A stretch of DNA of 64,000 bases from a virus. The notes below the pieces were generated by a model. That model was not told where the DNA came from. It saw only the letters and a program-made list of their open reading frames with translations, and did not search any database. This document shows, piece by piece, positions 144 through 63,879 of this stretch. How positions within the stretch are numbered: position 1 is the first letter of the stretch; each line of letters begins with the position of its first letter. Position numbers and translations under genes: made by a program. The DNA lies in the IMG/VR virus record IMGVR_UViG_3300045988_126851, positions 19,646 through 83,645 of that record. One strand, 5' to 3'.

Positions 144-761
144 ATGGAAAAGAACTTTTTAAACATCACTCCAGAGAGTGGAAATGGAAATCAAGAAGTA
201 ACCGTAAATGCAAAAGCTAACGTCTCTCTAGAAGATCGAGAAGAGACGTTGAGAATCAGATCCTCAACAGGGAAAGAGGCTTCTGTAAGAATAACCCAGG
301 ATGGTGTACCTTTTATGGCTCATATTGGAGTAGTACCTAGAAATATCTTCCCCGCAAGTACTGGACATCCTACAAATATTACCTTTTTAAAAACTACTTG
401 GGATTCCGAAGGTATACCAACTACTGAACTGAAAGTAGCTAATTCAGATGAAAGAGAGCTTGAGTTTATACCATATTTCCAACTCCTAATCAGAAAGGAT
501 ATAGCAGATGAATTATTACCTCCTGGGGAGTATGGAAACCCTGCGATGTATATTCAAGATGCTCTACTAGATCAATCTCTAACTGGTATTGGTATAAGCT
601 TTAATCAAATTACTATAAAGGGGATTGAATATTATACTGCAGCAATAGAGGGATCTTACTATAAAGAAGATTTTCATGCTAGCATAGGATTATGCTATGA
701 ATATGAAGAGGTTGAATTATTCCGATTATGTACACAGAGATTTGATATTCACTGGTTCTAG
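144..761 (+). CDS. hypothetical protein with N-terminal BACON/Ig-like module; paralog of 1126..1758
   Basis: 205-aa ORF. The first ~55 aa (FLNITPESGNGNQEVTVNAKANVSLEDREETLRIRSSTGKEASVRITQDG) align with the N-terminus of the 1126..1758 product. They fit the short beta-sandwich pattern of BACON-type domains. Confidence 0.6.
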   Translation: MEKNFLNITPESGNGNQEVTVNAKANVSLEDREETLRIRSSTGKEASVRITQDGVPFMAHIGVVPRNIFPASTGHPTNITFLKTTWDSEGIPTTELKVANSDERELEFIPYFQLLIRKDIADELLPPGEYGNPAMYIQDALLDQSLTGIGISFNQITIKGIEYYTAAIEGSYYKEDFHASIGLCYEYEEVELFRLCTQRFDIHWF

Positions 762-1038: not shown

Positions 1039-1065
1039 AAGCCAGGGATGTTTGGTCTCTGGCTT
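1039..1065 (+). terminator. possible hairpin terminator
   Basis: AAGCCAG (1039-1045) pairs with CTGGCTT (1059-1065) and is followed by CTTTGTGTG. It lies just after the stop at 1030. Confidence 0.35.
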
Positions 1066-1125
1066 CTTTGTGTGAAGTATATGGGGTATACTATAACCCC
1101 ATATAAACCTTTAATATGTAAGTGT

Positions 1126-1758
1126 ATGGATAAAAGTTTTTTAAGTGTATCTCCAAGTGAAGGAGAAGGTAATGCTCAAGTAGTTATTAATGTTAAGGAA
1201 AATATGTCTCTAGATGAAAGGTCTGAGAGCCTTAATATCCGAACGAGTAATGGAGTAGAGAAGCAAGTGAGGATTACTCAGGATCCTGGTATGATCTTCT
1301 TCCCTACTATGCAAGTATCGGGCATCAAGGTAGGACAGGGAGAGCAGAAGTTTGCTTCCTTAAATCATTATCCTGTGATATCTCCCCAGAGTGATAAGAA
1401 TTGGTTGGTAGATAGTATTAATATAGGGAACCTATTATTAAGCTTTACGAACGGTGGGGTAATAGTTTTTCGATTAAGGATTCTTATGAGAAAAAGTTTC
1501 TGGGAGAATTATACTCCTGAGATTAACCAGGGAGGTTCTACCTATTACCTTGAGGATAAGAGTAAAGAGTTATATTCTATTGATGAATTTTGGTACCTTA
1601 AAGATGACTGGGTATATGTGGGATGGAATTGGAATATGGACTCTTCTGAAGGTTCTCATATTCCTTCTGCTACTTTAGATTATGATAATGGGGAAGGAGA
1701 GTATAAGACTTTATTTGAATGGAGATTCTCGGCTGATTCAATGGATTTATTACCTTAG
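1126..1758 (+). CDS. hypothetical protein with N-terminal BACON/Ig-like module; paralog of 144..761
   Basis: The track ORF starts at 1048, but the ATG at 1126 (MDKSFLSVSPSEGEGNAQVVINVKENMSLDERSESLNIRTSNGVEKQVRITQD) aligns with the start of the 144..761 product. Confidence 0.6.
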   Translation: MDKSFLSVSPSEGEGNAQVVINVKENMSLDERSESLNIRTSNGVEKQVRITQDPGMIFFPTMQVSGIKVGQGEQKFASLNHYPVISPQSDKNWLVDSINIGNLLLSFTNGGVIVFRLRILMRKSFWENYTPEINQGGSTYYLEDKSKELYSIDEFWYLKDDWVYVGWNWNMDSSEGSHIPSATLDYDNGEGEYKTLFEWRFSADSMDLLP

Positions 1759-23059: not shown

Positions 23060-24024
23060 GATTCGGCCTTTTTTAATGTTTCAATTAGTAGCTTAGTTTT
23101 AACCTCATCCTTAATACCTTTTTCTTTTAGGTACCTTTTTGCTAGTACTTTTTTAGATAATTGCTTAGTTATTTGATGGTTAGTATTTACGGGTATACTA
23201 GATTTTTTAGGTAATACCATATAATAATTGCCATCATCTTTAATCTCATCTTCAGATCCTACATCAACAAATTTCGGAAACCCCTTTAATTCTACAAACT
23301 TCATAGAAAGATCAGAATAAAGTTTCCAGTATCCAAGTTTACAATCTTTATCAGTTCTCCTTTGTTGTAAAGGAGCCCCAATCATATAAACCTTCTTTGA
23401 TAACCTTTGGGGTTTATGTATATGGCCACATAATACTAAATCAAATTTATTCAGGATATTCACATTCAGATTTTCTACTGAATTTATTTCTCTCCCATCC
23501 GTATCCTTAGCACCAGGATAATCAGTGTGTAGTAAAAGAATATTCTTTTTATGTTTATCTAATTCAATCTTCTTTAGATGATCACTTAAACCGATATTAT
23601 TATCTATATAGGGTAAACCATATACCATAATATCCCTATGAGTTAGAGATAAGGGTGTTTTCCCATAATCTAGTATCTTTAACCCATACCTTTCTACTAA
23701 ATAAAGCCAACTAAAAGGTGGCATACCAATCTTACTTACTTTCTTGATATCATGATTCCCGGAGATAGCTAAAATATTCAGATTACCCAGTTTATTAAAT
23801 TCCCTGTAACATATCTCATATAATTCTTGATCCATAGATTCTGCCCTATGAAATAGATCTCCACAAAATAAAGCTGGGCAATTATACTTCTTACATAAAC
23901 CCTGTATAGTCGACAAAACCCTGAAATGATTCAGGGTTCTTTCATTATCCTCATTAAATTTAGCATAGATATTCAAATGCAAATCTGAGAATACTATTGC
24001 TATTACTTGTTTCTGTTTCTCCAT
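23053..24024 (-). CDS. sbcD: SbcD/Mre11-like nuclease (T4 gp47 analogue)
   Basis: Calcineurin-type phosphoesterase motifs are present in order: FSDLHLN, CGDLFH, SGNHD, LLHTD and CGHIHKPQ. Confidence 0.85.
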   Translation of the reverse strand: MEKQKQVIAIVFSDLHLNIYAKFNEDNERTLNHFRVLSTIQGLCKKYNCPALFCGDLFHRAESMDQELYEICYREFNKLGNLNILAISGNHDIKKVSKIGMPPFSWLYLVERYGLKILDYGKTPLSLTHRDIMVYGLPYIDNNIGLSDHLKKIELDKHKKNILLLHTDYPGAKDTDGREINSVENLNVNILNKFDLVLCGHIHKPQRLSKKVYMIGAPLQQRRTDKDCKLGYWKLYSDLSMKFVELKGFPKFVDVGSEDEIKDDGNYYMVLPKKSSIPVNTNHQITKQLSKKVLAKRYLKEKGIKDEVKTKLLIETLKKAESC

Positions 24025-24596
24025 ACCATATTAATATGATAATCGATTTGTTCTTTTCTTTCTTCCAAATCCAAACTTGATAGACATACAGTAGGTACTT
24101 CCCAATTTGCAAGCAATTCACTCATAAGGGAAGATATTTGAATCTGGAAGTACCTGTTGAGTATTCTTTTACCATTCTCTTCTATATTCCAACCTCTATA
24201 GTTCTCTAGATTCAAAGGGAGAAATATAGCTAGATCACATTGCATTTCCATTAATGTTTGACATTGACAGAAAAAGTGTTCCATCTCACATTCGGGGAGA
24301 GATTTCGATTGTTTATACCAAAAATAGGCAGCTAAATCGATATAACTTCTATCAGTAACAAATTCCTCTTTATCCTTGAATAATTTGTTCCTCAAATTCA
24401 ATAATTGAAAATCAGATTTATACAGAGCTTCTGATCCCAAAGATAATATCTCTATATGGGATAAATCTCTAGTAGCAGGTAATAGATCTGTCATACTACC
24501 AGAAATAAAGGGTAATCCATATTTCTCAGATATATACTTTGCTAAAGTTGTTTTGCCAATTCCTGATGGGCCTACAAACATAATTCTTTTACTCAT
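24003..24596 (-). CDS. P-loop nucleotide/nucleoside-monophosphate kinase-like protein
   Basis: N-terminal Walker A FVGPSGIGKTTLAKYI. The 197-aa size fits small kinases. The substrate is unknown. Confidence 0.55.
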   Translation of the reverse strand: MSKRIMFVGPSGIGKTTLAKYISEKYGLPFISGSMTDLLPATRDLSHIEILSLGSEALYKSDFQLLNLRNKLFKDKEEFVTDRSYIDLAAYFWYKQSKSLPECEMEHFFCQCQTLMEMQCDLAIFLPLNLENYRGWNIEENGKRILNRYFQIQISSLMSELLANWEVPTVCLSSLDLEERKEQIDYHINMVWRNRNK

Positions 24597-25458
24597 GGTG
24601 TAATTCTTTAAAAGGTTGAATAAATTGGTCAGTTAAGAATGAAGATAAAGAGTATTCTATACATACCTTTTTAAACTTATCATACTTAAACTTCTTCTTT
24701 GATTTAAGAGGTAATTTCTCTAAGGGATTATGTCTTACAAACCAGAATAGATCAATCAATTGTTCATTCCTTTTCCATATTTGAAGATATTCTTTGTTCT
24801 TACTCTGGGCAATAAACTTCTCAATTCTACCCTCATCAAGGATTTTCCTTGCTTTTACTGGGCCTATACCCGGGAACCCTGGTATATCATCGGAAGTATC
24901 TCCAACCATTGCAAGGTACTCTACCGTTTCATGAGAATGATAACCGAATAATTCTTTGCAGTTATCCATTCTTATCATCTCATCTTTTCTGGGATTATAT
25001 ATCCTCAGGTTATTTGATAGCAACTGGTTAAAGTCTTTATCCGATGATATAAGTATCATTTTCTCAAATTGGAATTTTTTAATTGCAAGGTATGCTAAGA
25101 AGTCATCCCCTTCATATACTGTAGATTTCTTTTTATCGAAGATATAATTAATTCTTAGCATACCCAGCATTTTCATTATAATTGCCTTTTGCTTTTGCAA
25201 TGATTCGTAATCTACAGATATATTTTTTCTATGTCCCTTGTAATTGGGCAATAACTTCGTCCTTACTGGTGAATGACCATTATCGAATGAAATATAAACC
25301 TCATCTGGTTCGAACCTTGTAAGATACATATGTAGAGATTTGAAAAATCCGAATATTGCCCCACTCGGTTTGCCATCGGTAGATTTAAGTTTTTCGAACT
25401 TATGGAAACTAGCGTGTAGTAGATTTTCCCCATCCACTAAAAGTATTAGTTTTTTCAT
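24589..25458 (-). CDS. 5'-3' exonuclease / flap endonuclease (T4 RNase H-like)
   Basis: A PIN-like N-terminus (LLVDGENLLHASFH) is followed by the H3TH motif GDTSDDIPGFPGIGPVKARKIL. Confidence 0.85.
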   Translation of the reverse strand: MKKLILLVDGENLLHASFHKFEKLKSTDGKPSGAIFGFFKSLHMYLTRFEPDEVYISFDNGHSPVRTKLLPNYKGHRKNISVDYESLQKQKAIIMKMLGMLRINYIFDKKKSTVYEGDDFLAYLAIKKFQFEKMILISSDKDFNQLLSNNLRIYNPRKDEMIRMDNCKELFGYHSHETVEYLAMVGDTSDDIPGFPGIGPVKARKILDEGRIEKFIAQSKNKEYLQIWKRNEQLIDLFWFVRHNPLEKLPLKSKKKFKYDKFKKVCIEYSLSSFLTDQFIQPFKELHHE

Positions 25459-26120
25459 GATTTATTCTTTCTTTTAGAATGAATATAGTAATGGGTTCCT
25501 TGAGTTAAGTTACGATAATTATTATAATAATCCCTAACTAAACAAATCCCAAACCCCATCATTTCGGCAATTTCTTTAACTGTAAATCCAACTTCTAGAA
25601 GTCTTGGAATATATGACCTTTGGATTTCTGTACTTTTATAATGTACACTATCGGCCCCTTTAGCTTGAATCATCCTCCCATCCCTAGAAGCTTGAGACAT
25701 ATTATCTTTTTGTGTACCCCAATAAAGATTCTCTACTCTATTATTAGTAGGTACATTATCTTTATGACATACATAAGGTAACCTTTCCGGATTTGGGATA
25801 TAGACTAAAGCCACTAATCTGTGTAATAACCAATTCTTCTTCCCTATACCTGGTTGGGATAATCCCACTATATACCTTCCATTCTTATTCAGATGGGGTT
25901 GTTTTAAGTGATACCTTTTGTTTAATATACCCTTACCATTAACATCCCACCTTGAATATATTTTACCTCTCTTAGAGATGTGGTATCCTGGATATCCTGG
26001 GATATTATCATGAAGTATTTTATTCTGATACTTACCTTCTCCATGAGTATAGATTGGAGAAGTCCAAGACAGACTACCTATCTTATTCTTGGACCTTGTA
26101 AATTGTGTTTTCTTGCTCAT
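25455..26120 (-). mobile_element. free-standing HNH homing endonuclease gene, copy 1
   Basis: HRLVALVYIPNPERLPYVCHKDNVPTNNRVENLYWGTQKDN is an HNH_3-type motif, followed by a C-terminal HTH. It is a paralog of 29902..30432, and both ends overlap neighbouring genes as ATGA. Confidence 0.85.
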
Positions 26121-28349: not shown

Positions 28350-28742
28350 TTAATTGTTGTTAGCCTCTGAATAGATGATCTCATTCAAACTTAACACTGT
28401 AACGATATTCTTTTCTAGAATATTCTTTACGGATTCTGGCCAATCCGGTCTGATCTCAAATTCCAATTCTTTACCAGCATACATACCGTAAGTAACTACT
28501 CTACCAATCTCCGTAAGATCGGTATAAGTTTTATATTCTTCAGTTATAGTACCTCTTTTAACTACTACTCCCTTTCTGGGAACTCCCTCAGAAACAGTCC
28601 CGGGTATAATGATACCGGACTTGGTTGTGTTAATATCTTTCGGAGATACTATCAAAACCCGATTTTCTGTTGGTAAACCAGGTAGAGTTTTATTAAAAAG
28701 CTCTGCTACCATAGTTGAAATGAAGTTTAGTGAGTAAATCAT
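28350..28742 (-). CDS. GroES-like co-chaperonin
   Basis: NRVLIVSPKDINTTKSGIIIPGTVSEGVPRKGVVVKRG...G..V.Y follows the GroES pattern (drvlv......t.gGi.lp......k...g.VvavG). Confidence 0.55.
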   Translation of the reverse strand: MIYSLNFISTMVAELFNKTLPGLPTENRVLIVSPKDINTTKSGIIIPGTVSEGVPRKGVVVKRGTITEEYKTYTDLTEIGRVVTYGMYAGKELEFEIRPDWPESVKNILEKNIVTVLSLNEIIYSEANNN

Positions 28743-29720: not shown

Positions 29721-29942
29721 TTATGTAGACATAGTATCTTCTCTTTTCGCTTCTGTAATGGTAGATACTGAATCTAAATGATTTATATAGGTTTTACAAT
29801 TTGGGCATTGTATTACCTTAAAAATACAACTATTTAATTTATCGTAAACTCTAAAAGTTTCACTGGTATCATATTCAAATTCGCAATCACATACTGGGCA
29901 TTTAGCCCTCCATACCGTGGGCCCGTTTAAAATCTTCTTCAT
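29721..29942 (-). CDS. small zinc-ribbon protein
   Basis: 73 aa with CPVCDC and CPNC pairs. Its first 7 codons are duplicated at the start of the HNH gene. Confidence 0.55.
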   Translation of the reverse strand: MKKILNGPTVWRAKCPVCDCEFEYDTSETFRVYDKLNSCIFKVIQCPNCKTYINHLDSVSTITEAKREDTMST

Positions 29943-30432
29943 AACGTTTTCTTTTCTTAATATATTTATATACTAACATTGGTGATATCCCATACTTCCT
30001 AGCAAGTTTTGCTTTTATCATACCAGTATCATACTCATAAAGTAATTGAAGTATATCGGGTCTACTTAACTTTGTATCTGAAAATTTAAACCTACCATCT
30101 CTAATACATTGTTGAGTATTTTCCTTAGCAGTACCCCAATATAAGTTCTTATAATGATTATGAGTTCTTATATTATCCTTATGACATACATACTTATGAT
30201 TATTTGGGTTTGGTACATATACTAATGCTACTAATTGATGAATGTTATAAGTATACCTATATCCATTCGTATCCCTAATAGAAACTATAACGTATCCGTT
30301 ATTTTTAATTCGATTAAGGGATAATTTTACCCAACCTTTACCCTTATAATTAGAATATACCTTACCATTCTTGGTAACATGGTAATTAGGGCAACCAATG
30401 CAATCTAAGTTTCCCTTTAAAATCTTCCTCAT
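29902..30432 (-). mobile_element. free-standing HNH homing endonuclease gene, copy 2
   Basis: HQLVALVYVPNPNNHKYVCHKDNIRTHNHYKNLYWGTAKEN plus a C-terminal HTH. It is flanked by 21-nt near-identical direct repeats (29923-29943 and 30413-30433). Confidence 0.85.
29923..29943. repeat. direct repeat flanking the HNH gene (downstream copy)
   Basis: ccgtttaaaatcttcttcata matches ccctttaaaatcttcctcata at 30413-30433 at 19 of 21 positions. Confidence 0.9.
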
Positions 30433-33400
30433 ACTGCTTTATCTCTTTACTAAACAATTTAGGATAATCCTTAATGATTACATTCTTATACTTCTTATGT
30501 TCTTCCATATACTCCTCTACTGAGAAATCTGGTTGAAGCATCTTTCTATAATCATACCCAGGAATAAAAGGTAATTCTTCTGCCATTGACCTACCAATAG
30601 AGAAGTCCATTGACATATCTACATCATCCACTTGAAAACCAAAATATTTCTTAGTACTGGGGTTTCTCAATATATCCCATATTTTAAAAACAGTCCAAGT
30701 ATTAATATATTCAGGCTTTGAGTAAAAATAGGCTGCATCATGAACAGTTGCTACTTCAAGCATACGTGGTAATTTACCTTGCCTCATTAACCAATAAACG
30801 AGAATAGCTCCGAAGTTGGTCATATTTGCTGCAGCACCCTGGCAATTACCAGTGATTAAAGTTCTATATCGTTTATCTTCACCAATTACCCTTGTAAAGA
30901 AAGCCCCAGATTTTACAGTAGGACACCATACTTTACCTACATACTTCTCTTTCGTTAAATTATTCTCTAAATTGTAAGTATTCTTGGTGTTTACTGATTT
31001 CCTAAAATTAGAGAATTTTACTCCATAACTAGTTTTAGTGGCCCGTACAAACTCTTGACCATATTTACTTGGTTTCTTATCTTTAAAATGAGATATGTCA
31101 CCTTCATGTGATAATTCATACATACTTGAGGTGTTGTTACAAAGTACTACCAAAGCCTGAAGTAATTCTCCTTGAGTTTTATCTCCGGTTGCCCATACCG
31201 ACCAACCATCCCCTAACCTCATATTCTCTAATAAGATACTTAATTGAGGGTTAGTTAATCGAGTTAATAACTTCATATTTAACTTACGTTCAGGAACTAA
31301 CCTATTAAGTTTATAAACAAATCCTGGGTCTCTTATTTCCCATATCACTTGATTCTTTTCTCTACGGGAGAATTCTACATCTAATTCTTCCATGATAGAA
31401 TCAATGGTATCTACCTTGTGGGGATTTGCAGTATTACTCTGACATATTCTTACTATGTTACCATTCTTCAGATGACCATCAGTAAGATACCAACCTAAAA
31501 AAGCTACATAAGCATCCGAATATCTAGCTTTCACTTGATTGTTATGAGGAGCTCTTATTGGGATAGCATAAGGTTTATCTGAATTGTATAATTCTTCAGA
31601 AGTTAATACTTCGGTATTATCTAATTTAGATATTTTATTTGGTTTAGTAACTACCCATCTATGGTCTGGAGTTGATAATACGTCTAGATGTTTTGTCTTT
31701 AACCGAATCATATCTCCATCATAATCAAATACATTTACCCTTTCAACCTTTTGCCATTCTGATTCTCCTATGTCCCGATTAAAAGCTAATATCTCATCAC
31801 CAACCTTTAAATCTTCATAATTTACCCATCCCTTAGTTTTACTAAGAGCCTGAGATGAGGGTAATAAGCAAGGAAAATTAAGACCTAAACGAATTGCATA
31901 AGCAACTTCTTGCTTATCATTTGAATATATTTGTGGGAGTCTTCGCTTAGTACCAAATAACTGTGTATAATACCCATGCTTACGCAGGAATTTCTCTTGT
32001 TTCTCTTTGAACTTAAGTATTTTAGGATGTTTCTTAAAGAACTCATCCATCTCTTTACGAGCTTCCTCCTTGGTAACTATAATACCAGCTTTTGGGTCTG
32101 ATAATTTTACTGCTAGCAAAGCATCTCCAATCCCATAAATAAGGCCAAATGCAATTTGCTTTGCTTGCTTTCTCCTTACCTTCCAAATCTTATGGTCAGG
32201 ATGACTTTCGTCTTCGTATATTTTACTTGCTTCCTCAATTGGAACCCCATATTTTGCTGCTGCTATACCAAGGTGAGGGTCTACTCCCTTAGCAAATGCT
32301 TCTAGATAGGTTTCATCCCCAGATAGATGAGCCATCATTCTTAACTCTGCCTGTGAGTAGTCGAATGCCATATATAGATAACCTGGAGGAGCAACCAATT
32401 GTTTCTTAATATTTGGGTCTACTGATGTCTTGGGTATTTGCTGCATATTTGGGTCAGCAGAACTAAAACGATTAGAGTCCGTACCATGTATATTATACCT
32501 ACCATGTAATCGGGAATCATCTTGTACCTTTTCCCACCATCCATAAATATAGGTCTTATACATTTTCTCTAACCCTCGTAATTCAAGAAGTTTATCAAGA
32601 AATATGGCCTTTGGTGAATCTGGCTTTTTAATGGTTAGCCTAAGATTAGTAAGGGTTTCTTCATCTGTACTTGGTTTACCAGATTCATTCTCTTTAATTA
32701 CATCGAAATGAAAACCATCCTCTGAATACATCAATGCAGGTAAATCAACTGGACTACCCAAATTAATGGGTCTTATTAATTCTTGTTCCTTTTTAGTTGT
32801 GAATATACCTGCTTTGATATTTGAGATTTTCTGTTCCCTTGATGCAATCTTTCGTTTGTCTTTTGGGTCATTATAATCTAACTCCTCAAGTTCAGCTTCT
32901 ATAAATTGGATATACTTGTCAATCTTTTCTTGGTTATACTTCTTTTCGAATTTCTTTACTCTGGGTAAGTCATATATTGCTTGTCTAGCAGCATCTATTT
33001 TTGGTTTATACTCTTCCAAAAGCTTTTTATTGAACTCAGTATCTAGATATAATCCCTCTTTCTCTACTGAAGTAAGTACTCGTGAATTACACATAAATAA
33101 ATTACGGAATACCGAATACATACCCAAGTCAATCAACTTCTTTTCAAAGAATATCATTAACCTAAGAGTATAATCCGTATCTTGACACCCATAATGGCAA
33201 AGTGGATCTAATTCTTTTTCATCCCAAGGTATTTTATCAAAGGCATCTTGTTTTTCATAATTACCATACTCAGGTAAATACCTTCTTACCATTGACTTTA
33301 GGTCATGAGGTTTTTCTTCATTGAGAACATATTTTGCAAGCATACCATCTAAACATGTACCCCTATAAAATATTTGATACTTTTGGTTTATCTGGTCATC

Positions 33401-33709
33401 AAACTTCCAGTTCCATGCAACCTTTACAATATCATAATTCTCAATTACCTCTTCCCCAAATTTCCTTAGCATCTTTTTCCAATTCCAACCTGGTGAAGTA
33501 TAATCTTTTGTTTCGAAATGGTCTAAAGGAATGGAAGCACCAAACCCTGGCATCCAGGATACTGAGAGTATAGTTGGCTTAAAATCCCTATTATATAGGG
33601 GTTTTGCATTCGATTCGTAGTCACAGCAAGCATAACCTGTAGCTTTACAACAAGCAATAAGTTTCTTAAGCTCTCTCTTATTTTTTATTATTGTATACCG
33701 TGTCTCCAT
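30386..33709 (-). CDS. polA: family-A DNA polymerase with 3'-5' exonuclease domain, interrupted by an intein
   Basis: Exo motifs are CDYESN, NWKFDDQ and YGCQDTDY. Pol motif A is AFDYSQAELRMMAH, motif B is RRKQAKQIAFGLIYG and motif C is TVHDAAY. The conserved N.P.QG.AA segment is split as NFP / intein / CQGAAAN. Confidence 0.95.
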   Translation of the reverse strand: METRYTIIKNKRELKKLIACCKATGYACCDYESNAKPLYNRDFKPTILSVSWMPGFGASIPLDHFETKDYTSPGWNWKKMLRKFGEEVIENYDIVKVAWNWKFDDQINQKYQIFYRGTCLDGMLAKYVLNEEKPHDLKSMVRRYLPEYGNYEKQDAFDKIPWDEKELDPLCHYGCQDTDYTLRLMIFFEKKLIDLGMYSVFRNLFMCNSRVLTSVEKEGLYLDTEFNKKLLEEYKPKIDAARQAIYDLPRVKKFEKKYNQEKIDKYIQFIEAELEELDYNDPKDKRKIASREQKISNIKAGIFTTKKEQELIRPINLGSPVDLPALMYSEDGFHFDVIKENESGKPSTDEETLTNLRLTIKKPDSPKAIFLDKLLELRGLEKMYKTYIYGWWEKVQDDSRLHGRYNIHGTDSNRFSSADPNMQQIPKTSVDPNIKKQLVAPPGYLYMAFDYSQAELRMMAHLSGDETYLEAFAKGVDPHLGIAAAKYGVPIEEASKIYEDESHPDHKIWKVRRKQAKQIAFGLIYGIGDALLAVKLSDPKAGIIVTKEEARKEMDEFFKKHPKILKFKEKQEKFLRKHGYYTQLFGTKRRLPQIYSNDKQEVAYAIRLGLNFPCLLPSSQALSKTKGWVNYEDLKVGDEILAFNRDIGESEWQKVERVNVFDYDGDMIRLKTKHLDVLSTPDHRWVVTKPNKISKLDNTEVLTSEELYNSDKPYAIPIRAPHNNQVKARYSDAYVAFLGWYLTDGHLKNGNIVRICQSNTANPHKVDTIDSIMEELDVEFSRREKNQVIWEIRDPGFVYKLNRLVPERKLNMKLLTRLTNPQLSILLENMRLGDGWSVWATGDKTQGELLQALVVLCNNTSSMYELSHEGDISHFKDKKPSKYGQEFVRATKTSYGVKFSNFRKSVNTKNTYNLENNLTKEKYVGKVWCPTVKSGAFFTRVIGEDKRYRTLITGNCQGAAANMTNFGAILVYWLMRQGKLPRMLEVATVHDAAYFYSKPEYINTWTVFKIWDILRNPSTKKYFGFQVDDVDMSMDFSIGRSMAEELPFIPGYDYRKMLQPDFSVEEYMEEHKKYKNVIIKDYPKLFSKEIKQYEEDFKGKLRLHWLP
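30413..30433. repeat. direct repeat flanking the HNH gene (upstream copy)
   Basis: See 29923-29943. This copy contains the HNH start codon and the YEEDFK codons of the polymerase. Confidence 0.9.
30845..31870 (-). mobile_element. intein (342 aa) with LAGLIDADG homing-endonuclease domain inside polA
   Basis: Starts CLLPSSQ... (aa 614). Block B is STPDHRW. The LAGLIDADG motifs are FLGWYLTDGH and LLENMRLGDGW. It ends ...RTLITGN (aa 955) followed by the +1 Cys of CQGAAAN. It is in frame with the host ORF. Confidence 0.85.
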
Positions 33710-33764: not shown

Positions 33765-34502
33765 TTAGTATTTCTCTTGTAAGTCTTCCAAATTAGAAGC
33801 TAATGCTGTCCAATCTTTCTTATAAGCATGAAGAGAATCAATAGTGTGATACAAGTAGCCAGGTTTTACTCCCACCTCTTTAGCTACATATTTCATTAAT
33901 CTCCATGCAAGGTATACGTCGTTACCGAAATGAATTATAAAATCTGAGCTTCTTTGGTGATAGCAAATGTGTAATACCTTCTCTCCCTTACTATTCTCTC
34001 GGATAAGGAAATCATAGTACATAGAGCAGGGTATACGTTTATTACCATGGTAATAAAGAGTATCATCTTCACCATTACCATTAAATATAGGTAATACCGC
34101 TTTACGAGTATCAGAATCTGATCTTAGTAATTGTATGGTATATGGAAGAATTGCCATCCTTTCGTTATAGGTATAATCAAATTTACCATCTACCAAAAAC
34201 TGTTCCCATAAGTCTTTTCTTAATTCCCAAGCTTTGCCCGGGTTAATTACCTTAGAAGTATTAATCCTTTCTTGGAACTCAGCATCTGCCCACTCCTTTG
34301 AATGAGAGAATACGAATAACCATACTGGGTCTCCAAGTGAAGTTAAGCAATATTGTTGGCAAATGAGTTCTTTTGTAATAAAATCCTCATTACCTTCAAT
34401 CCTCTTATTCTGATAGGTCTTTGGTTTTACAGTTTGACCATAACTGTTGAGTTCTCTGCCCATTTCAGACATTAACTCAAACGAATTACTGTATATCCGC
34501 AT
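33765..34502 (-). CDS. thymidylate-synthase-family pyrimidine (hydroxy)methyltransferase
   Basis: TRKAVLPIFN, the catalytic-Cys segment RIPCSMYYDF, and LHICYHQRSSDFIIHFGNDVYLAWRLMKYVAKEVGVKPGYLYHTIDSLHAY all parallel ThyA motifs (sRR.i.s.WN, PCH..fQF, lyQRS.D..lG.PFNi.sY.lL, G...h..Gd.HiY). It is clearly divergent from canonical ThyA. Confidence 0.75.
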   Translation of the reverse strand: MRIYSNSFELMSEMGRELNSYGQTVKPKTYQNKRIEGNEDFITKELICQQYCLTSLGDPVWLFVFSHSKEWADAEFQERINTSKVINPGKAWELRKDLWEQFLVDGKFDYTYNERMAILPYTIQLLRSDSDTRKAVLPIFNGNGEDDTLYYHGNKRIPCSMYYDFLIRENSKGEKVLHICYHQRSSDFIIHFGNDVYLAWRLMKYVAKEVGVKPGYLYHTIDSLHAYKKDWTALASNLEDLQEKY

Positions 34503-35415
34503 TTTTCTTTTGTTTTAATAAAAGTTTCTTTTTATAGGCTTTACGTTGAGAGTAAGATATTACATTCTCGGGATATTCTATATCTTCATATTCAAGAAGT
34601 AATTCTTTTGCTTTCATTGATTTATATGTTTCCTCATATAAATCTGGTCGAAGCACTTTAAAACTTCTAAAGAATACCTTGAATGAAGAGAATTCTTTCT
34701 CTGTACCTTTTTGGAATTTTTTCCATATCTCTTTTATCCTCTTATTCCAAGAATTCTCTTCAGCCCCTTTAAGTACCTTCTTTAAAGGTTTATGAGTATG
34801 ATACATTAGGAGTGTCTCAACGTTTCCATACATTTGAGTTGCGAATAGGTTGATTTGTACTGACTGATCCGGTCCGTATACGTATTCTGACATACGCTGG
34901 ATTAAGAGGAAATCGAAGATTAGTCTCTTCGTAATCTCGGAAGCTCGTATTACCATAGTTATTACCGGTATATCTTCCCCAAACCGTTTTGAGAATGTAG
35001 CAGCTATCAGACATTGTTTGCCATTATCATGATGATTGTTAAATATATAGGTTATATTGTAATTCTGATTGTACTTGTTTTTCAGTACTCTCAGCTTACT
35101 ACGCAATAAGTCAAGCTTATTAAAATCTATGTAATTATTCAATAAGCTAGTCCACTTAGTTTCTTTGTAATTGAAACATCTACCATAATCAAATTCTGGG
35201 TCTACCCAGGCTTTTCGTATTTTTATAAATACATTATACACTACTGCTACTCCACTGTTAGCCATAGCCCCTTTTTCAAATAAAGCAGGATCTAATCTTA
35301 GGAATCCCTCATTGAGTTTTTCCCATGCCTCTTGTGAAGTAGCAAATTCTAACGAATGGAGGGACTCCTCCGGATTAAGCTGAAGTCCCTCTAGCTTACG
35401 GTTCCAACCTGACAT
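34486..35415 (-). CDS. second, highly divergent TS-fold-like protein (tentative)
   Basis: The ATG at 35415 follows the upstream stop (35417). GKQCLIAATF...VITMVIRASEITKRLIFDFLLIQRMSEYVYG...INLFATQMYGN has the same element order as the TS core (Cys, then strand, then RS.D-like, then helix, then G...h..Y.N). Confidence 0.45.
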   Translation of the reverse strand: MSGWNRKLEGLQLNPEESLHSLEFATSQEAWEKLNEGFLRLDPALFEKGAMANSGVAVVYNVFIKIRKAWVDPEFDYGRCFNYKETKWTSLLNNYIDFNKLDLLRSKLRVLKNKYNQNYNITYIFNNHHDNGKQCLIAATFSKRFGEDIPVITMVIRASEITKRLIFDFLLIQRMSEYVYGPDQSVQINLFATQMYGNVETLLMYHTHKPLKKVLKGAEENSWNKRIKEIWKKFQKGTEKEFSSFKVFFRSFKVLRPDLYEETYKSMKAKELLLEYEDIEYPENVISYSQRKAYKKKLLLKQKKNADIQ

Positions 35416-35416
35416 G

Positions 35417-36256
35417 CTAATAGTTTGATTTTTGACGCCATAAATTAAGGCGTTGTTTTTTAAAGAATAAACTAAATAATCCGTAAGGAGTAAACCCATT
35501 CATAGCCAAGAATCCCATATAGAGATAGAATGACTTTACCAAAGATTCCTGAAAGTCGATTTCTTTAGTCATCACTTGAGTTTGTTTCCAAGGTCTACAC
35601 TTAAGGAAATTCCTTGCTTTATTTAGTTCATAGATCACTTCCCATAAATATAACTTCTCGTTTTCATGAGATATTTCGCTCATTTCATGAAAACCGGGAG
35701 TATATGAAACTACTTTGTCCCATTCTGATCTATCTATATCCATAGGAGTTATTATAGGATATTTCCTTACACTTCGATGATCGGGATACTTGATAAGTAG
35801 TTCTTTAACCCCAATTGCCATTACCTCAAATAAACTCTTTGCATCTTTATATTTTAATATATCTTCGGGCAATATATTAGAATACAGAAGCAAAGTAAAG
35901 AAGAATCCCAAAGCATCTGCTTGTTCTTCATTTGCATTTGCTAGATGATTTAATACCTGAGTATATTCTTCTGGGGTTAAGCAATCATTATTCCATCCAT
36001 AATCACGATATATAGATACTACTTCATCGGTAGATTCGAATCCTTCGGTTAATTCCTCGATAACCCTACCAATAAAATCCTTTAGGATAACTTGGCTCTT
36101 TGGGTGATTTATATCTAAAGGATAATCAGGTAACCTTTCTATCTCTTTATACCCAAAGAATTGTTCTACCCCAAGATCATACATTTCTTGTAGTATCTGT
36201 GCCTCAGTTTCTTCTACCTGAGGCACTTGTTCATTTATATTCCTTATGTCCACCAT
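35417..36256 (-). CDS. MazG-like all-alpha NTP pyrophosphohydrolase (tentative)
   Basis: IGRVIEELTEGFES and ANEEQADALGFFFTLL resemble the paired E..E / EE..D metal-binding helices of MazG and dCTPase-type enzymes. Confidence 0.5.
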   Translation of the reverse strand: MVDIRNINEQVPQVEETEAQILQEMYDLGVEQFFGYKEIERLPDYPLDINHPKSQVILKDFIGRVIEELTEGFESTDEVVSIYRDYGWNNDCLTPEEYTQVLNHLANANEEQADALGFFFTLLLYSNILPEDILKYKDAKSLFEVMAIGVKELLIKYPDHRSVRKYPIITPMDIDRSEWDKVVSYTPGFHEMSEISHENEKLYLWEVIYELNKARNFLKCRPWKQTQVMTKEIDFQESLVKSFYLYMGFLAMNGFTPYGLFSLFFKKQRLNLWRQKSNY

Positions 36257-36807
36257 TCTATGTTTTGAGATGAACCAAATCCTTTATCTCCTCTACTTCC
36301 CCACATTTGAGATTCTGAATAGAATTCTTCTTCCAGAATTTCTTCGGGTTCCGTAATATAGACTGGTACATGAATAAACTGTACTAGCTTTTGACCAGCC
36401 TCTATAATCTGGGGTTCTTGAGAAGCATTGTATACTCCGATATGTATTTCTCCAACATAGGGAGAATCTACTATCTCAGCAGTAAAGATTAATCCTTTCT
36501 TAGTAGCTATACCAGATTTGTTTGCTGCCATTAACATAGATGCAGGAGGTTCTAGTAATACCTTGATACCTGATGAGATGAGTATCCTATGCCCCGGTTG
36601 TAAAGCTATATGCCTTACAAAGACTTCACCAAAAGGAACATCTAAATCATAACCTTCGGAGTCGAATTCATTTTTAGAATGAATATCCTCTGAAGTTAGG
36701 TTGGTTGGTACATAAAAATCTAACCCAGCATCATTTGGGTTTGCTCTGTTGGGAGATACTACCTCCCTTACTTTGATAAATCTAAATCTGTTCATAATAT
36801 ATTGCAT
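36244..36807 (-). CDS. dut: trimeric dUTPase
   Basis: All five dUTPase motifs are present in order: DAGLDFY, NKSGIATKKG, EIVDSPYVGEI, GQKLVQF and SRGDKGFGSS. An alternative ATG at 36795 forms an ATGA overlap with the upstream stop. Confidence 0.85.
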   Translation of the reverse strand: MQYIMNRFRFIKVREVVSPNRANPNDAGLDFYVPTNLTSEDIHSKNEFDSEGYDLDVPFGEVFVRHIALQPGHRILISSGIKVLLEPPASMLMAANKSGIATKKGLIFTAEIVDSPYVGEIHIGVYNASQEPQIIEAGQKLVQFIHVPVYITEPEEILEEEFYSESQMWGSRGDKGFGSSQNIEWWT

Positions 36808-63249: not shown

Positions 63250-63879
63250 TTAAGAGATAGTCCAGCTATCGTTAGAAGTAATGGTGATAGTATTAGCACC
63301 ACCAGTAGCTTCGAAGGTAAGCTGTTCAGGACTAACGGTCAAGTTAGAATCAGCAGCAGATTGGGTAATCGTAGCAGTAGCACTTACTTCTGCATTTACA
63401 GAATCACTTGCCTTAACTGTGTACTGTTTGTTCTGAATAGAATCGTTGGCAGCAAAGTTCACAACTACAGTTACTACATATTCACCGCTAGCTCCCGGGT
63501 CACCAGCCGGAACATAAATACCGCCAACTTCTGGAACATCTACGTTGTTTACTTTTACAGAACCTACTGTACCACTGTTGCCGATCTCGAGTTTGAATTT
63601 CTCTACATTGGTTTTGAATTCTACAGTAGCAGTAGTAGCAGCAGCTCCCACATTAGGATCTGATTCCTTGGTGATGTAAATTGCTTTACCGTTCTGTAGT
63701 ACAGAAACGTCTTTGCTTACACCACCGTTGGTAGCAACCTGAACACTAGTGCTACGAGCATTACGACCGAGATAAGCATCTACTGTTACCTGTACTGTAC
63801 TATTACCAGTACCACTTTTCTTGTCAAGGTGAGCCCATCCTGCAATGGCTCTAGCCTCTCTCAAATTTTCTCTGTCCAT
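63250..63879 (-). CDS. BACON/Ig-like domain virion protein (decoration-type candidate)
   Basis: 209 aa. STVQVTVDAYLGRNARSTSVQVATNGG...VSVLQNG and LTVSPEQLTFEATGGANTITITSNDSWTIS fit the BACON-type pattern (L.vsp..l.f.a.gg...v.v.sn..W). The gene is followed by a strong terminator. Confidence 0.65.
   Translation of the reverse strand: MDRENLREARAIAGWAHLDKKSGTGNSTVQVTVDAYLGRNARSTSVQVATNGGVSKDVSVLQNGKAIYITKESDPNVGAAATTATVEFKTNVEKFKLEIGNSGTVGSVKVNNVDVPEVGGIYVPAGDPGASGEYVVTVVVNFAANDSIQNKQYTVKASDSVNAEVSATATITQSAADSNLTVSPEQLTFEATGGANTITITSNDSWTIS

What the first reader, a model, noticed from the sequence alone, without database searches (positions are those of the whole stretch)
33765..36807. Gene cluster suggesting non-canonical pyrimidine synthesis: dUTPase, MazG-like NTPase and two tandem divergent TS-fold genes next to the polymerase
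Directly upstream of polA, in one co-directional run, lie four genes.
- A bona fide trimeric dUTPase with all five motifs.
- A 279-aa protein with MazG-like paired acidic helices.
- A 309-aa protein whose core (QC...VITMVIRASEITKRLIFDFLLIQRM...INLFATQMYGN) mirrors the thymidylate-synthase core order.
- A 245-aa clear TS-family enzyme (RIPCSMYYDF, HQRSSDF, SLHAY) that is far from canonical, highly conserved ThyA.

In T4, dCTPase (gp56) plus a TS-homologous dCMP hydroxymethylase (gp42) plus a dNMP kinase (gp1) replace C with 5-hmC. In SPO1-type and other phages, TS homologues make 5-hmdUMP, which can be further hypermodified after a P-loop kinase step.

This window also encodes a small P-loop kinase (24003..24596). 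Two different TS-fold paralogs together with a MazG-type NTPase go beyond what simple dTMP supply needs. This raises the possibility of a modified base in virion DNA.
Basis: inference. Interest (0 to 1): 0.75.

Follow-up and report, generated by a model that had tools for sequence, protein, structure and literature searches.

The report
Phage cytosine-modification module with extra TS-fold enzyme
A common human-gut phage carries, next to its DNA polymerase, a T4-like gene set that probably replaces cytosine with a modified cytosine, and this set always includes a second, uncharacterised enzyme with the thymidylate-synthase fold whose role is unknown.

Summary
All four genes are real and lie on the minus strand.

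- **36244-36807:** a trimeric dUTPase.
- **35417-36256:** a 279-aa all-alpha NTP pyrophosphatase of the T4 gp56 / dimeric-dUTPase family.
- **34486-35415:** a 309-aa protein, called ORF2 here.
- **33765-34502:** a 245-aa thymidylate-synthase (TS) homologue.

The 245-aa enzyme keeps the folate-type catalytic residues. It has Asp where ThyA has Asn177 and Ser where ThyA has His147, which is the signature of dCMP-specific enzymes. It keeps Asp169, so it is not a 5-hydroxy-dCMP synthase.

ORF2 has no Pfam match. Its AlphaFold model (pLDDT 92.5) hits only TS-fold structures, and the best hits are cytosine-specific ones. It keeps the Cys, Arg and Asp of the nucleotide site.

ORF2 sat beside this TS type in 175 of 177 surveyed loci. 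The pair also occurs in cultured phages of Clostridium, Pseudomonas, Serratia and Yersinia, and more weakly in Gordonia.

My best reading is a gp56/gp42/gp1-like route to a C5-modified dCTP, most likely hydroxymethyl, with ORF2 as a new coupled TS-fold component. No chemistry was measured, and the actual base and ORF2's function remain inferred.

The parts
36244..36807 (-). Trimeric dUTPase-like protein (187 aa from the first ATG; relatives are called at 179-180 aa)
   Evidence: Pfam PF00692 at 8.2e-15 and PHROG 135 dUTPase at 1e-25. Five dUTPase motifs are readable in the translation. It is conserved at this position in relatives.
35417..36256 (-). 279-aa all-alpha NTP pyrophosphatase of the T4 gp56 / dimeric-dUTPase (PF08761) family; predicted dCTPase
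   Evidence: Pfam dUTPase_2 scores 19.9 bits, below the 22.9 cutoff; PHROG 12184 scores 1.9e-17. T4 gp56 and Clostridium phage CPD4_73 both hit PF08761 above cutoff. phmmer to CPD4_73 gives 6e-15. A family HMM built without gp56 hits gp56 at 26.6 bits. A profile hits C. jejuni dimeric dUTPase 1w2y at 0.0074. The AF2 model is all-helical with pLDDT 81, but Foldseek found no PDB match.
34486..35415 (-). ORF2: 309-aa uncharacterised TS-fold protein (the ORF is open up to 35499; the likely start is Met29 at 35415)
   Evidence: No Pfam hit; PHROG 34294 'unknown function'. The AF2 model has pLDDT 92.5 and pTM 0.88. The 12 Foldseek PDB matches at E <= 0.001, and nearly all weaker ones, are TS-fold: MilA 2.5e-5, T4 dCMP hydroxymethylase 1.4e-4, phage HY126 dCMP hydroxylase 1.4e-4. 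hhalign against the TS family gives E 8.8e-4 and pairs C135/R157/E160/D168/Y205 with C146/R166/D169/N177/Y209 of E. coli ThyA. Invariant residues are Y83 K87 L91 Y95 C135 R157 D168.
33765..34502 (-). 245-aa TS-family enzyme with the dCMP signature (Arg143, Ser147, Asp169, Asp177 in E. coli ThyA numbering); predicted 5-substituted-dCMP synthase
   Evidence: Pfam PF00303 at 2.7e-11. Alignment with T4 gp42 and E. coli ThyA gives E75=E58, W99=W80, Y112=Y94, R133=R126, C159=C146, RSSD=R166/S167/D169, 'GND' with D=N177, and H225=H207. The signature is constant in 175 homologues.
24003..24596 (-). 197-aa P-loop dNMP / thymidylate-kinase-like protein; candidate kinase for the modified dCMP
   Evidence: Pfam AAA_28 at 2e-7 and PHROG 2107 thymidylate kinase at 4e-9. 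In Clostridium phage CPD4, Pseudomonas phage PMBT14 and Gordonia phage Gibbous a kinase gene sits directly upstream of the module.
30386..33709 (-). Family A DNA polymerase immediately downstream; it would have to accept the modified dNTP. It contains a 342-aa intein at 30845-31870.
   Evidence: Pfam DNA_pol_A at 3.8e-59 plus the 3'-5' exonuclease domain. Intein boundaries are NFP|C...GN|C, with a LAGLIDADG-like motif.

Best explanation
The cluster is a pre-replicative cytosine-replacement pathway of the T4 type. It is carried by an abundant gut phage of about 85 kb that fits the 'Flandersviridae' of Bacteroidota.

**Proposed steps.**
1. The 279-aa gp56-like pyrophosphatase hydrolyses dCTP (and perhaps dCDP) to dCMP. 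This lowers the canonical dCTP pool and supplies substrate. The neighbouring trimeric dUTPase removes dUTP.
2. The 245-aa TS homologue attacks C6 of dCMP with Cys159 and transfers one carbon from methylene-tetrahydrofolate to C5. The product is most likely 5-hydroxymethyl-dCMP, and less likely 5-methyl-dCMP.
3. The P-loop kinase and host NDP kinase raise the product to the triphosphate.
4. The phage PolA incorporates it.

ORF2 is a second, catalytically equipped TS-fold protein that is genetically locked to this TS type. It keeps the Cys nucleophile, one phosphate-binding Arg and the cytosine-reading Asp. It has lost most of the folate-side segment and the Arg pair contributed by the partner subunit. 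I therefore take it to act on the same cytosine nucleotide in a folate-independent step coupled to the TS reaction, such as chemistry on the 5-substituent through a Cys-C6 adduct.

**What is shown:** gene identities, folds, active-site residues and the conservation of the module.

**What is inferred:** the substrates, the product, the order of steps and any role of ORF2.
For: **Family assignments:**

**dCMP signature of the 245-aa enzyme:**
- Asp at the N177 position, with the same 'ND' as T4 gp42, and Ser at the H147 position.
- N177D and loss of H147 are the two positions most associated with cytosine-modified viral contigs (PMC8670742). N177D is the accepted dCMP determinant (PMC13326640).
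- Asp169 is kept, so the enzyme is not the flavin/O2 5-hydroxy-dCMP type. The hosts are also anaerobes (my knowledge).

**Reasons to favour hydroxymethyl over methyl:**
- The protein ends about 20 residues after the H-x-Y motif, like T4 gp42. E. coli ThyA and the Xp12 5-methyl-dCMP synthase continue for 55-58 residues.
- It is established TS enzymology (my knowledge) that the ThyA C-terminus closes the site for hydride transfer.
- The residue at position 143 is polar (Arg).
- No DHFR was found among the window ORFs scanned, whereas Xp12 has one next to its TS.
- In 12 sister loci, IspD and LicD genes sit immediately after this TS gene, as beta-glucosyltransferase sits beside gene 42 in T4.

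**ORF2:**
- TS fold with conserved C/R/D.
- Adjacent to an R143/D177 TS in 175 of 177 loci, in several architectures.
- The pair also occurs in Clostridium perfringens phages, Pseudomonas PMBT14, Serratia, Yersinia and Brevundimonas phages, a Desulfofustis phage and, weakly, Gordonia phage Gibbous.
- Only 3 hits in 185,579 species genomes, all on contigs that look like phage.
Against: - No base composition, enzyme activity or complex was measured.
- The rule that position 143 separates methyl from hydroxymethyl is not decisive. The residue here is Arg, neither Leu nor Asp/Glu, and the Xp12 methylase has Asn there.
- GATC (O/E 0.70), ATGCAT (0 observed against 10.6 expected) and CATATG (3 observed against 15.6 expected) are depleted. 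That is unexpected if every cytosine carried a bulky protective group.
- The 279-aa protein is below the Pfam cutoff, and its model found no structural match.
- ORF2's role is a guess. It could be non-catalytic, or it could act on another substrate.
- No tailoring enzyme was found among the window ORFs scanned. About 21 kb of the genome lies outside the window and was not examined.
Confidence: 0.55

Rival explanations
1. The module makes 5-methyl-dC, as in Xanthomonas phage Xp12. The 245-aa enzyme would be a dCMP methyltransferase, and the phage DNA would carry 5mC in place of C.
For: N177D alone turns ThyA into a dCMP methylase (PMC8670742). Five of seven metavirome TS homologues with N177D, found in similar PPase-TS-deaminase-PolA clusters, made 5-methyl-dCMP (bioRxiv 10.1101/2024.12.05.627091). 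Residual avoidance of some palindromes fits a small modification better than a bulky one.
Against: The enzyme lacks the long ThyA/Xp12-type C-terminus. It belongs to a different clade from Xp12/PaMx28. No DHFR or deaminase lies beside it in the window. An IspD/LicD pair downstream in sister phages would have no acceptor hydroxyl on 5mC.
Confidence: 0.2
2. The module is a nucleotide-salvage route and the DNA stays canonical. The route would be dCTP to dCMP to 5-methyl-dCMP, followed by deamination to dTMP. ORF2 would act as a Cys-dependent deaminase, because a C6 adduct labilises the 4-amino group. The result would be extra thymidylate for a 66% A+T genome.
For: Xp12-type phages do make part of their dTTP by deaminating 5-methyl-dCTP. 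In the window ORF2 occupies the slot that a dCMP deaminase occupies in other PPase-TS-deaminase-PolA clusters. The window has no ThyA or ThyX. The kinase resembles thymidylate kinase. Cys-adduct-driven deamination of cytosine is known chemistry for C5-methyltransferases (my knowledge).
Against: ORF2 coexists with a dCMP deaminase in PMBT14, Gibbous and the Desulfofustis phage. It also coexists with ThyX or canonical ThyA in sister loci, so it replaces neither. The route is more roundabout than deaminase plus ThyA.
Confidence: 0.1
3. ORF2 is not an independent enzyme. It would be an obligate partner of the 245-aa TS, for example one half of a TS-fold heterodimer, and would tune its specificity or stability.
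For: TS-family enzymes are obligate dimers with shared active sites (my knowledge). ORF2 and this TS type were found together in 175 of the 177 loci surveyed. The genes overlap or abut in many genomes: 17 nt in the window, 4 nt in L004 and PMBT14, 1 nt in Gibbous. ORF2 has lost the Arg pair that a TS subunit donates to its partner.
Against: Cys, Arg and Asp of ORF2's own site are invariant across very distant members, which argues for catalysis. Gene order and spacing vary: reversed in L092, and a 69-aa ORF lies between them in L094. Many genomes have two ORF2 paralogs for one TS.
Confidence: 0.2
4. ORF2 works on a polynucleotide. It would be a TS-fold enzyme that flips out and modifies cytosine, or 5-substituted cytosine, in DNA after replication.
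For: Three of the four Arg that hold the mononucleotide phosphate in ThyA are missing. Long forms end in strongly basic Lys/Arg tails: RKAYKKKLLLKQKKNADIQ in the window, and longer in P0247, P0260 and P0301. Conserved Lys/Arg (TKRL) lie in the former folate pocket.
Against: No TS-fold enzyme is known to act on DNA (my knowledge). Short paralogs and the PMBT14 member lack the tail. R157, the phosphate-binding Arg166 equivalent, is kept.
Confidence: 0.1

Closest known systems
Phage T4 hydroxymethylcytosine pathway: gp56 dCTPase/dUTPase, gp42 dCMP hydroxymethylase, gp1 dNMP kinase
   Same: The same three functions are encoded. The 279-aa protein shares PF08761 and the acidic-helix and C-terminal motifs with gp56. 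The 245-aa protein shares the fold, the catalytic set, the 'ND' motif with Asp179 and the short C-terminus with gp42. A P-loop kinase is present.
   Different: Identity to gp42 is only 19-24%. Position 143 is Arg rather than Asp. A separate trimeric dUTPase is present. The polymerase is family A rather than family B. No glucosyltransferase is present. T4 has no counterpart of the extra TS-fold gene, ORF2.
Xanthomonas phage Xp12-type 5-methylcytosine pathway: TS homologue making 5-methyl-dCMP, 5mC-selective deaminase, DHFR
   Same: An N177D TS homologue sits in a nucleotide-metabolism cluster next to replication genes.
   Different: The Xp12 enzyme has Asn143, Pro147 and a long ThyA-like C-terminus, and it sits beside a deaminase and DHFR. 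It has no ORF2 homologue: the ORF2 HMM scores its neighbouring 'HAD' gene at E 1.5. It forms a different TS clade.
Flavin-dependent 5-hydroxy-dCMP synthases: RB69 gp48, DLP3 gp80, phage HY126 AfhB (PDB 9iqu, 9iqc)
   Same: These are the best PDB sequence matches of the 245-aa protein (7e-8) and among the best structural matches of ORF2. They are short TS-fold enzymes acting on dCMP.
   Different: They carry Asn at position 169 and use O2. The window enzyme has Asp169, ORF2 has Glu, and the hosts are strict anaerobes.
MilA, the CMP hydroxymethylase of mildiomycin biosynthesis
   Same: It is the top structural match of ORF2 (2.5e-5). It is cytosine-specific, with Asp at the 177 position.
   Different: MilA is a full-size folate-dependent enzyme acting on a ribonucleotide in an antibiotic pathway. 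Identity to ORF2 is 12%, with a TM-score of about 0.36.

Membership tests
Thymidylate synthase / dCMP hydroxymethylase superfamily (PF00303): 245-aa protein | Significant match to the family profile | tested here: met
   43.6 bits against a cutoff of 24.3; PHROG 160 at 6e-25.
Thymidylate synthase / dCMP hydroxymethylase superfamily (PF00303): 245-aa protein | Catalytic Cys146 plus E58, W80, Y94, R166, S167, D169, H207 and Y209 | tested here: met
   All align in A4: E75, W99, Y112, C159, R184, S185, D187, H225, Y227.
ThyA proper (dUMP to dTMP): 245-aa protein | Asn177 and His147, which read uracil, plus a long C-terminal lid | tested here: not met
   Asp and Ser are found at these positions, and the chain ends about 20 residues after H-x-Y. 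True ThyA genes (LPACH..RSCD..N) occur as extra genes in some sister loci.
T4-type dCMP hydroxymethylase: 245-aa protein | Asp at position 177 (T4 Asp179) | tested here: met
   'HFGND' aligns with T4 'GFRND'.
T4-type dCMP hydroxymethylase: 245-aa protein | Acidic residue at position 143 (T4 Asp145), as proposed in PMC13326640 | tested here: not met
   Arg156 is found, and it is constant in 175 homologues.
T4-type dCMP hydroxymethylase: 245-aa protein | Makes 5-hydroxymethyl-dCMP from dCMP and methylene-THF | not testable with these tools
   Needs an enzyme assay or LC-MS.
Flavin-dependent 5-hydroxy-dCMP synthase: 245-aa protein | Asn at position 169 (D169N diagnostic, PMC13326640) | tested here: not met
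   The motif is RSSD, so Asp187 is kept.
TS fold: ORF2 (309 aa) | Three-dimensional fold matches TS-family structures | tested here: met
   The model has pLDDT 92.5. The 12 Foldseek PDB matches at E <= 0.001, and nearly all weaker ones, are TS-family, with probability 1.00 and E down to 2.5e-5, although TM-scores are only 0.35-0.54. BFVD gives the same picture.
TS fold: ORF2 (309 aa) | Sequence match to PF00303 | tested here: not met
   No Pfam hit at E<0.1. Profile-profile comparison gives E 8.8e-4 and probability 23%.
TS fold: ORF2 (309 aa) | Nucleophilic Cys and the R166 / D169 / 177-position triad | tested here: met
   C135, R157, E160 and D168, with the same spacing of R and D (+11) as in ThyA.
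TS fold: ORF2 (309 aa) | Folate-side residues (E58, W80, W83, Y94) and the phosphate-binding R21, R126' and R127' | tested here: inconclusive
   No aligned counterparts. The region is shortened to a conserved (K/R)W..L..NY helix, and 'DSRR' is replaced by 'NQNY'.
All-alpha NTP pyrophosphatase / dimeric dUTPase (PF08761; T4 gp56): 279-aa protein | Match to the family profile | tested here: inconclusive
   The direct hit is 19.9 bits against a cutoff of 22.9. The link holds transitively: phmmer gives 6e-15 to CPD4_73, which scores 44.6 bits. A family HMM hits gp56 at 26.6 bits and PDB 1w2y at 0.0074.
All-alpha NTP pyrophosphatase / dimeric dUTPase (PF08761; T4 gp56): 279-aa protein | Paired acidic metal-binding helices and the C-terminal K..N..R....Y motif | tested here: met
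   K59, R64, E67, E111, D114, K267, N271, R274 and Y279 are invariant, including in gp56.
All-alpha NTP pyrophosphatase / dimeric dUTPase (PF08761; T4 gp56): 279-aa protein | Structural match to a solved member | tested here: not met
   The model is all-helical (pLDDT 81), but Foldseek found no PDB match at E<0.4.
Trimeric dUTPase (PF00692): 187-aa protein | Profile match and five conserved motifs | tested here: met
   55 bits against a cutoff of 22. The motifs were read directly from the translation.

The most novel reading that the evidence does not exclude
ORF2 would found a new, phage-restricted class of TS-fold enzymes. These would perform a folate-independent second reaction on C5-substituted cytosine nucleotides, or on cytosine in DNA, through a Cys-C6 adduct. 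Together with the R143/D177 TS, they would generate a cytosine hypermodification not yet described.

In sister gut phages the IspD-LicD pair, placed directly after the TS gene, would then attach a CDP-activated phospho-alcohol to the hydroxymethyl group. That would be a teichoic-acid-like decoration of DNA. Some of the most abundant human-gut phages would then carry an unknown DNA base.
Probability: 0.25. Interest if true: 0.85.

Novelty: new variant of a known kind. Interest (0 to 1): 0.66.

Why it matters
These phages are among the most frequently assembled in human gut metagenomes: single 90% clusters of ORF2 hold thousands of sequences.

If their cytosines are replaced, several things are affected:
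- restriction and CRISPR escape in Bacteroidota;
- library and nanopore bias in virome studies;
- host-range prediction.

The ORF2 family is the more general point. It is a conserved, unannotated partner of one particular TS clade in phages of at least five bacterial phyla. It has been missed by domain-based surveys of DNA-modification genes because it has no Pfam model.

It may explain why some N177D TS homologues fail when they are expressed alone. It may also add a new reaction type to a very well-studied enzyme fold.

Cultured carriers exist (Clostridium phage CPD4, Pseudomonas phage PMBT14, Serratia phage Serbin, Yersinia phage P744, Gordonia phage Gibbous), so the question can be tested directly.

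Tried and rejected
**Searches that gave little.**
- A megablast of the region against GenBank phages found nothing.
- The two large homologue searches returned only close relatives of at least 75% identity. The representative-library search was needed to get diversity.
- No fusion partners were informative. The longer ORF2 relatives P0292, P0296, P0290 and P0311 have no Pfam domain.
- Literature searches for the PDB codes, Flandersviridae DNA modification, the cultured carrier phages and 'pyrimidine hmase' gave no experimental data on this module.

- The search for related loci with the full alignment failed for lack of a conserved stretch. It worked with subsets.
- I guessed accession MG596799 for PMBT14; it turned out to be PMBT3.

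**Ideas considered and dropped or downgraded.**
- 5-hmdU or thymine hypermodification: rejected because both proteins have Asp at position 177.
- 5-hydroxycytosine: rejected because Asp169 is kept and the hosts are anaerobic.
- ORF2 as a substitute for ThyA or for dCMP deaminase: weakened because ORF2 coexists with both in related phages.
- The residue-143 rule as a discriminator of methyl from hydroxymethyl: the Xp12 methylase has Asn there, so I do not rely on it.
- Foldseek on the 279-aa model found no match.
- The palindrome analysis gives only weak, ambiguous evidence.

Full report
**1. What is there**

The window's genes from about 5 kb onward run on the minus strand. Between a DnaB/primase/SF2-helicase block and polA lie four tightly packed ORFs:
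- 36244-36807 (187 aa)
- 35417-36256 (279 aa)
- 34486-35499 (337 aa from the first ATG)
- 33765-34502 (245 aa)

polA (30386-33709) follows 55 nt later. Homologues of the third protein are about 305 aa and cover 87% of the ORF.

The surrounding genes are a T4-like replication and recombination set:
- gp32-like SSB
- UvsX/RecA
- 5'-3' exonuclease
- Mre11/Rad50
- a GroES-like protein
- a P-loop kinase at 24003-24596, which matches PHROG 'thymidylate kinase' at 4e-9

Several features fit the 'Flandersviridae' described by Benler et al. (PMC8008677):
- BACON-domain proteins
- relatives of about 85 kb
- a contractile-tail baseplate
- a DnaB-primase-PolA module followed by about 20 kb of unknown ORFs

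The IspD-LicD insertion that paper reports is present in sister loci I retrieved. The window matches IMG/VR contig UViG_3300045988_061587 at 100% identity across ORF2.

**2. The four proteins**

*dUTPase (187 aa).* Pfam dUTPase scores 8.2e-15, and all five motifs are recognisable in the sequence.

*279-aa protein.* The evidence for the gp56 / dimeric-dUTPase family is as follows.
- It scores just below the Pfam cutoff for dUTPase_2 (19.9 bits against 22.9) but 1.9e-17 to a PHROG of nucleotide pyrophosphohydrolases.
- T4 gp56, the dCTPase/dUTPase of the hydroxymethylcytosine pathway, belongs to the same Pfam family. So does the homologue in Clostridium phage CPD4, at 44.6 bits.
- The window protein matches that CPD4 protein at 6e-15.
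- An HMM of the family built without gp56 finds gp56 at 26.6 bits.
- A profile finds the Campylobacter dimeric dUTPase 1w2y at 0.0074.
- The alignment shows the two acidic helices and the C-terminal K..N..R....Y motif invariant, including in gp56.
- Its AlphaFold model is all-helical (pLDDT 81), but Foldseek retrieved no solved relative. The assignment therefore rests on sequence.

*245-aa protein.* This is a clear TS-family member (43.6 bits). Aligned with E. coli ThyA, T4 gp42 and relatives down to 37% identity, it keeps Glu58, Trp80, Tyr94, Arg126, Cys146, Arg166, Ser167, Asp169, His207 and Tyr209.

It differs at the diagnostic positions.
- Asn177 is Asp, within the same 'ND' as T4 Asp179.
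- His147 is Ser.
- Leu143 is Arg.

According to PMC13326640 and PMC8670742, N177D defines dCMP as the substrate, and positions 177 and 147 are the two most associated with cytosine-modified viral DNA.

D169N marks the flavin-dependent 5-hydroxy-dCMP synthases. Asp169 is kept here, so that chemistry is excluded by the published criterion, even though those enzymes (PDB 9iqu, 9iqc) are the best PDB sequence matches. It would also need O2 in strictly anaerobic hosts.

*ORF2 (309 aa).* It has no Pfam hit and only a PHROG of unknown function. I collected 139 cluster representatives from the 1.84-billion-protein library. An alignment of 59 full-length members gave an AlphaFold model with pLDDT 92.5 and pTM 0.88.

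The 12 Foldseek matches at E <= 0.001, and nearly all weaker ones, are thymidylate-synthase-fold proteins. The top ones are the cytosine-specific members:
- MilA CMP hydroxymethylase, 2.5e-5
- T4 dCMP hydroxymethylase, 1.4e-4
- phage HY126 dCMP hydroxylase, 1.4e-4

TM-scores are modest (0.35-0.54), so this is a divergent, trimmed version of the fold.

Profile-profile alignment with the TS family (E 8.8e-4) pairs residues as follows.

| ORF2 | E. coli ThyA |
|---|---|
| Cys135 | Cys146 |
| Arg157 | Arg166 |
| Glu160 | Asp169 |
| Asp168 | Asn177 position |
| Tyr205 | Tyr209 |

Cys135, Arg157 and Asp168 are invariant in the family.

ORF2 lacks counterparts of Arg21 and of the Arg126/127 pair. The stretch that carries Trp80, Trp83 and Tyr94 is replaced by a short conserved (K/R)W..L..NY helix. 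Conserved Lys/Arg (TKRL or TRL) lie where ThyA lines its folate pocket. Long forms end in very basic tails.

**3. The module elsewhere**

I surveyed 177 related loci from IMG/VR, ENA, JGI and Logan. ORF2 sat beside a TS with the signature Arg143 / Ser-or-Thr147 / Asp169 / Asp177 in 175 of them.

| Architecture | Loci |
|---|---|
| dUTPase, gp56-like, ORF2, TS (9 also with the kinase inside the fetched flank) | 91 |
| dUTPase, gp56-like, long ORF2, short ORF2, TS (two ORF2 paralogs) | 72 |
| Variants with a canonical ThyA (LPACH..RSCD..N) inserted | 5 |
| Variants with ThyX inserted between the two ORF2 paralogs | 8 |

The ThyX loci belong to the two-paralog group, so they are not an additional set.

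In 12 loci, IspD (1e-26) and LicD (1.5e-37) genes lie immediately after the TS gene and before polA. Other lineages have unknown 111-aa and 202-aa ORFs in that slot.

The triad of gp56-like NTPase, ORF2 and TS also occurs in the following:
- Clostridium perfringens siphophages, where it is preceded by a thymidylate-kinase-like gene
- an unrelated 38-kb phage, with the gene order reversed
- Gordonia phage Gibbous (ORF2 HMM weak at 3e-4; gp56-like protein 1.3e-19)

In other phages ORF2 and this TS type occur together, but the pyrophosphatase is of another type or was not identified:
- Pseudomonas phage PMBT14, as kinase, MazG-type PPase, ORF2 homologue (HMM 4.7e-13), TS (RKPCT..RSCD..D), dCMP deaminase, PolA. 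This PPase does not match the gp56-like family HMM.
- Serratia, Yersinia, Stutzerimonas and Brevundimonas phages
- a Desulfofustis phage (ORF2 HMM 2.9e-6)

A scan of one genome from each of 185,579 bacterial and archaeal species found only three hits, all on contigs that look like phage (two of about 80 kb, one a 5.7-kb fragment). The family therefore appears phage-restricted.

Two GenBank records label the ORF2 homologue 'pyrimidine hmase synthase'. I found no experimental work on it.

**4. How it most likely works**

The parts map onto the T4 scheme.
- The gp56-like enzyme makes dCMP from dCTP and depletes the canonical pool.
- The TS homologue adds a one-carbon unit at C5 of dCMP.
- A phage dNMP kinase and host NDP kinase produce the triphosphate.
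- PolA incorporates it.

I favour hydroxymethyl over methyl for four reasons, none of them decisive.
1. The enzyme ends about 20 residues after the H-x-Y motif, like T4 gp42. ThyA and the Xp12 5-methyl-dCMP synthase have a lid of 55-58 residues, which ThyA needs for hydride transfer (the enzymology is from my own knowledge).
2. Position 143 is polar.
3. There is no DHFR, whereas Xp12 has one beside its TS.
4. Sister phages place transferase-type genes (IspD, LicD) directly after the TS gene, much as T4 places beta-glucosyltransferase beside gene 42. That makes sense only if a hydroxyl acceptor exists.

The residue-143 rule itself is unreliable, because the Xp12 methylase has Asn there.

ORF2 keeps what is needed for Michael addition of Cys to C6 of a cytosine ring that is read and protonated by Asp. 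It has lost most of the folate side. It coexists with dCMP deaminase and with ThyA or ThyX in relatives, so it replaces neither.

I rank the possibilities for ORF2 as follows:
- (a) a folate-independent step on the 5-substituted cytosine nucleotide
- (b) an obligate partner of the TS
- (c) a polynucleotide-level enzyme
- (d) a deaminase-like route to dTMP

These are inferences.

**5. Evidence that cuts the other way**

GATC (O/E 0.70, z -6.4), ATGCAT (0 observed against 10.6 expected) and CATATG (3 against 15.6) are depleted in the window. Some C-containing restriction targets are therefore still under selection. This argues against a bulky modification on every cytosine, although 5mC or 5hmC would not block all enzymes.

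No tailoring enzyme was found in the window. About 21 kb of the genome lies outside it. No chemical or biochemical datum exists for any carrier of the module in the literature I could search.

**6. Verdict**

The pathway type is known. The constant extra TS-fold protein, its paralog expansion and the variable slot after the TS gene are not. I rate the finding as a new variant of a known kind, with interest about 0.66.

My confidence that the module makes a C5-modified dCMP for incorporation into DNA is about 0.55 to 0.6. My confidence in any specific role for ORF2 is low.

Noticed in passing
window 30845-31870 (minus), inside polA 30386-33709: PolA carries a 342-aa intein (aa 614-955). It starts with Cys after 'NFP', ends '...ITGN' before 'CQGAAANM', and has a LAGLIDADG-like LGWYLTDGH motif. 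In relatives the same polA is instead split by HNH or DUF559-type endonuclease ORFs, or carries Intein_splicing hits. The gene is therefore a hotspot for mobile elements.
   Followed up: partly
loci L114, L116, L117, L119, L121, L123-L129 (e.g. L116:10014-11577): In 12 sister phages an IspD-family cytidylyltransferase (232 aa) and a LicD-family phosphotransferase (290 aa) sit directly after the TS(D) gene and before polA. Benler et al. read these genes as cell-wall or isoprenoid functions. Their position beside the cytosine-modifying module suggests they might instead decorate DNA.
   Followed up: partly
loci L161-L170 (ThyX, e.g. L170:7062-7739) and L102, L132, L164, L166, L173 (ThyA, e.g. 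L173:6753-7730): Some relatives carry a ThyX or a canonical ThyA inserted inside the module. The window has neither, so it must rely on the host for dTMP or on an unknown route.
   Followed up: partly
72 IMG/VR loci, e.g. L104:6989-8759 and L090:7031-8798: Many relatives have two tandem ORF2 paralogs: a long form of about 330 aa (motif VVTRLP.D) and a short form of about 255 aa (motif TKRL..D). Both keep the Cys, Arg and Asp.
   Followed up: partly
window 144-761, 1048-1758 (+) and 63250-63879 (-): Three proteins carry BACON domains. This is typical of Bacteroidota-associated phages and is consistent with the Flandersviridae description.
   Followed up: no
window 29902-30432 and 25455-26120 (minus): HNH homing-endonuclease-like genes flank polA and lie beside the recA/uvsX-like gene. 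Relatives show presence/absence variation of such genes between the TS gene and polA.
   Followed up: no
whole window: ATGCAT is absent (10.6 expected), CATATG occurs 3 times (15.6 expected) and GATC is at 0.70 of expectation. This suggests specific restriction pressure from the host.
   Followed up: partly
window 28350-28742 (minus): A GroES/Cpn10-like co-chaperonin gene sits in the replication module, next to the gp32-like SSB.
   Followed up: no
L048:3026-3646 and 55 other relatives: A ferritin-like protein (206 aa) lies about 5 kb upstream of the module in many relatives. It had no BLASTP match (E <= 1e-3) among the window's ORFs.
   Followed up: no
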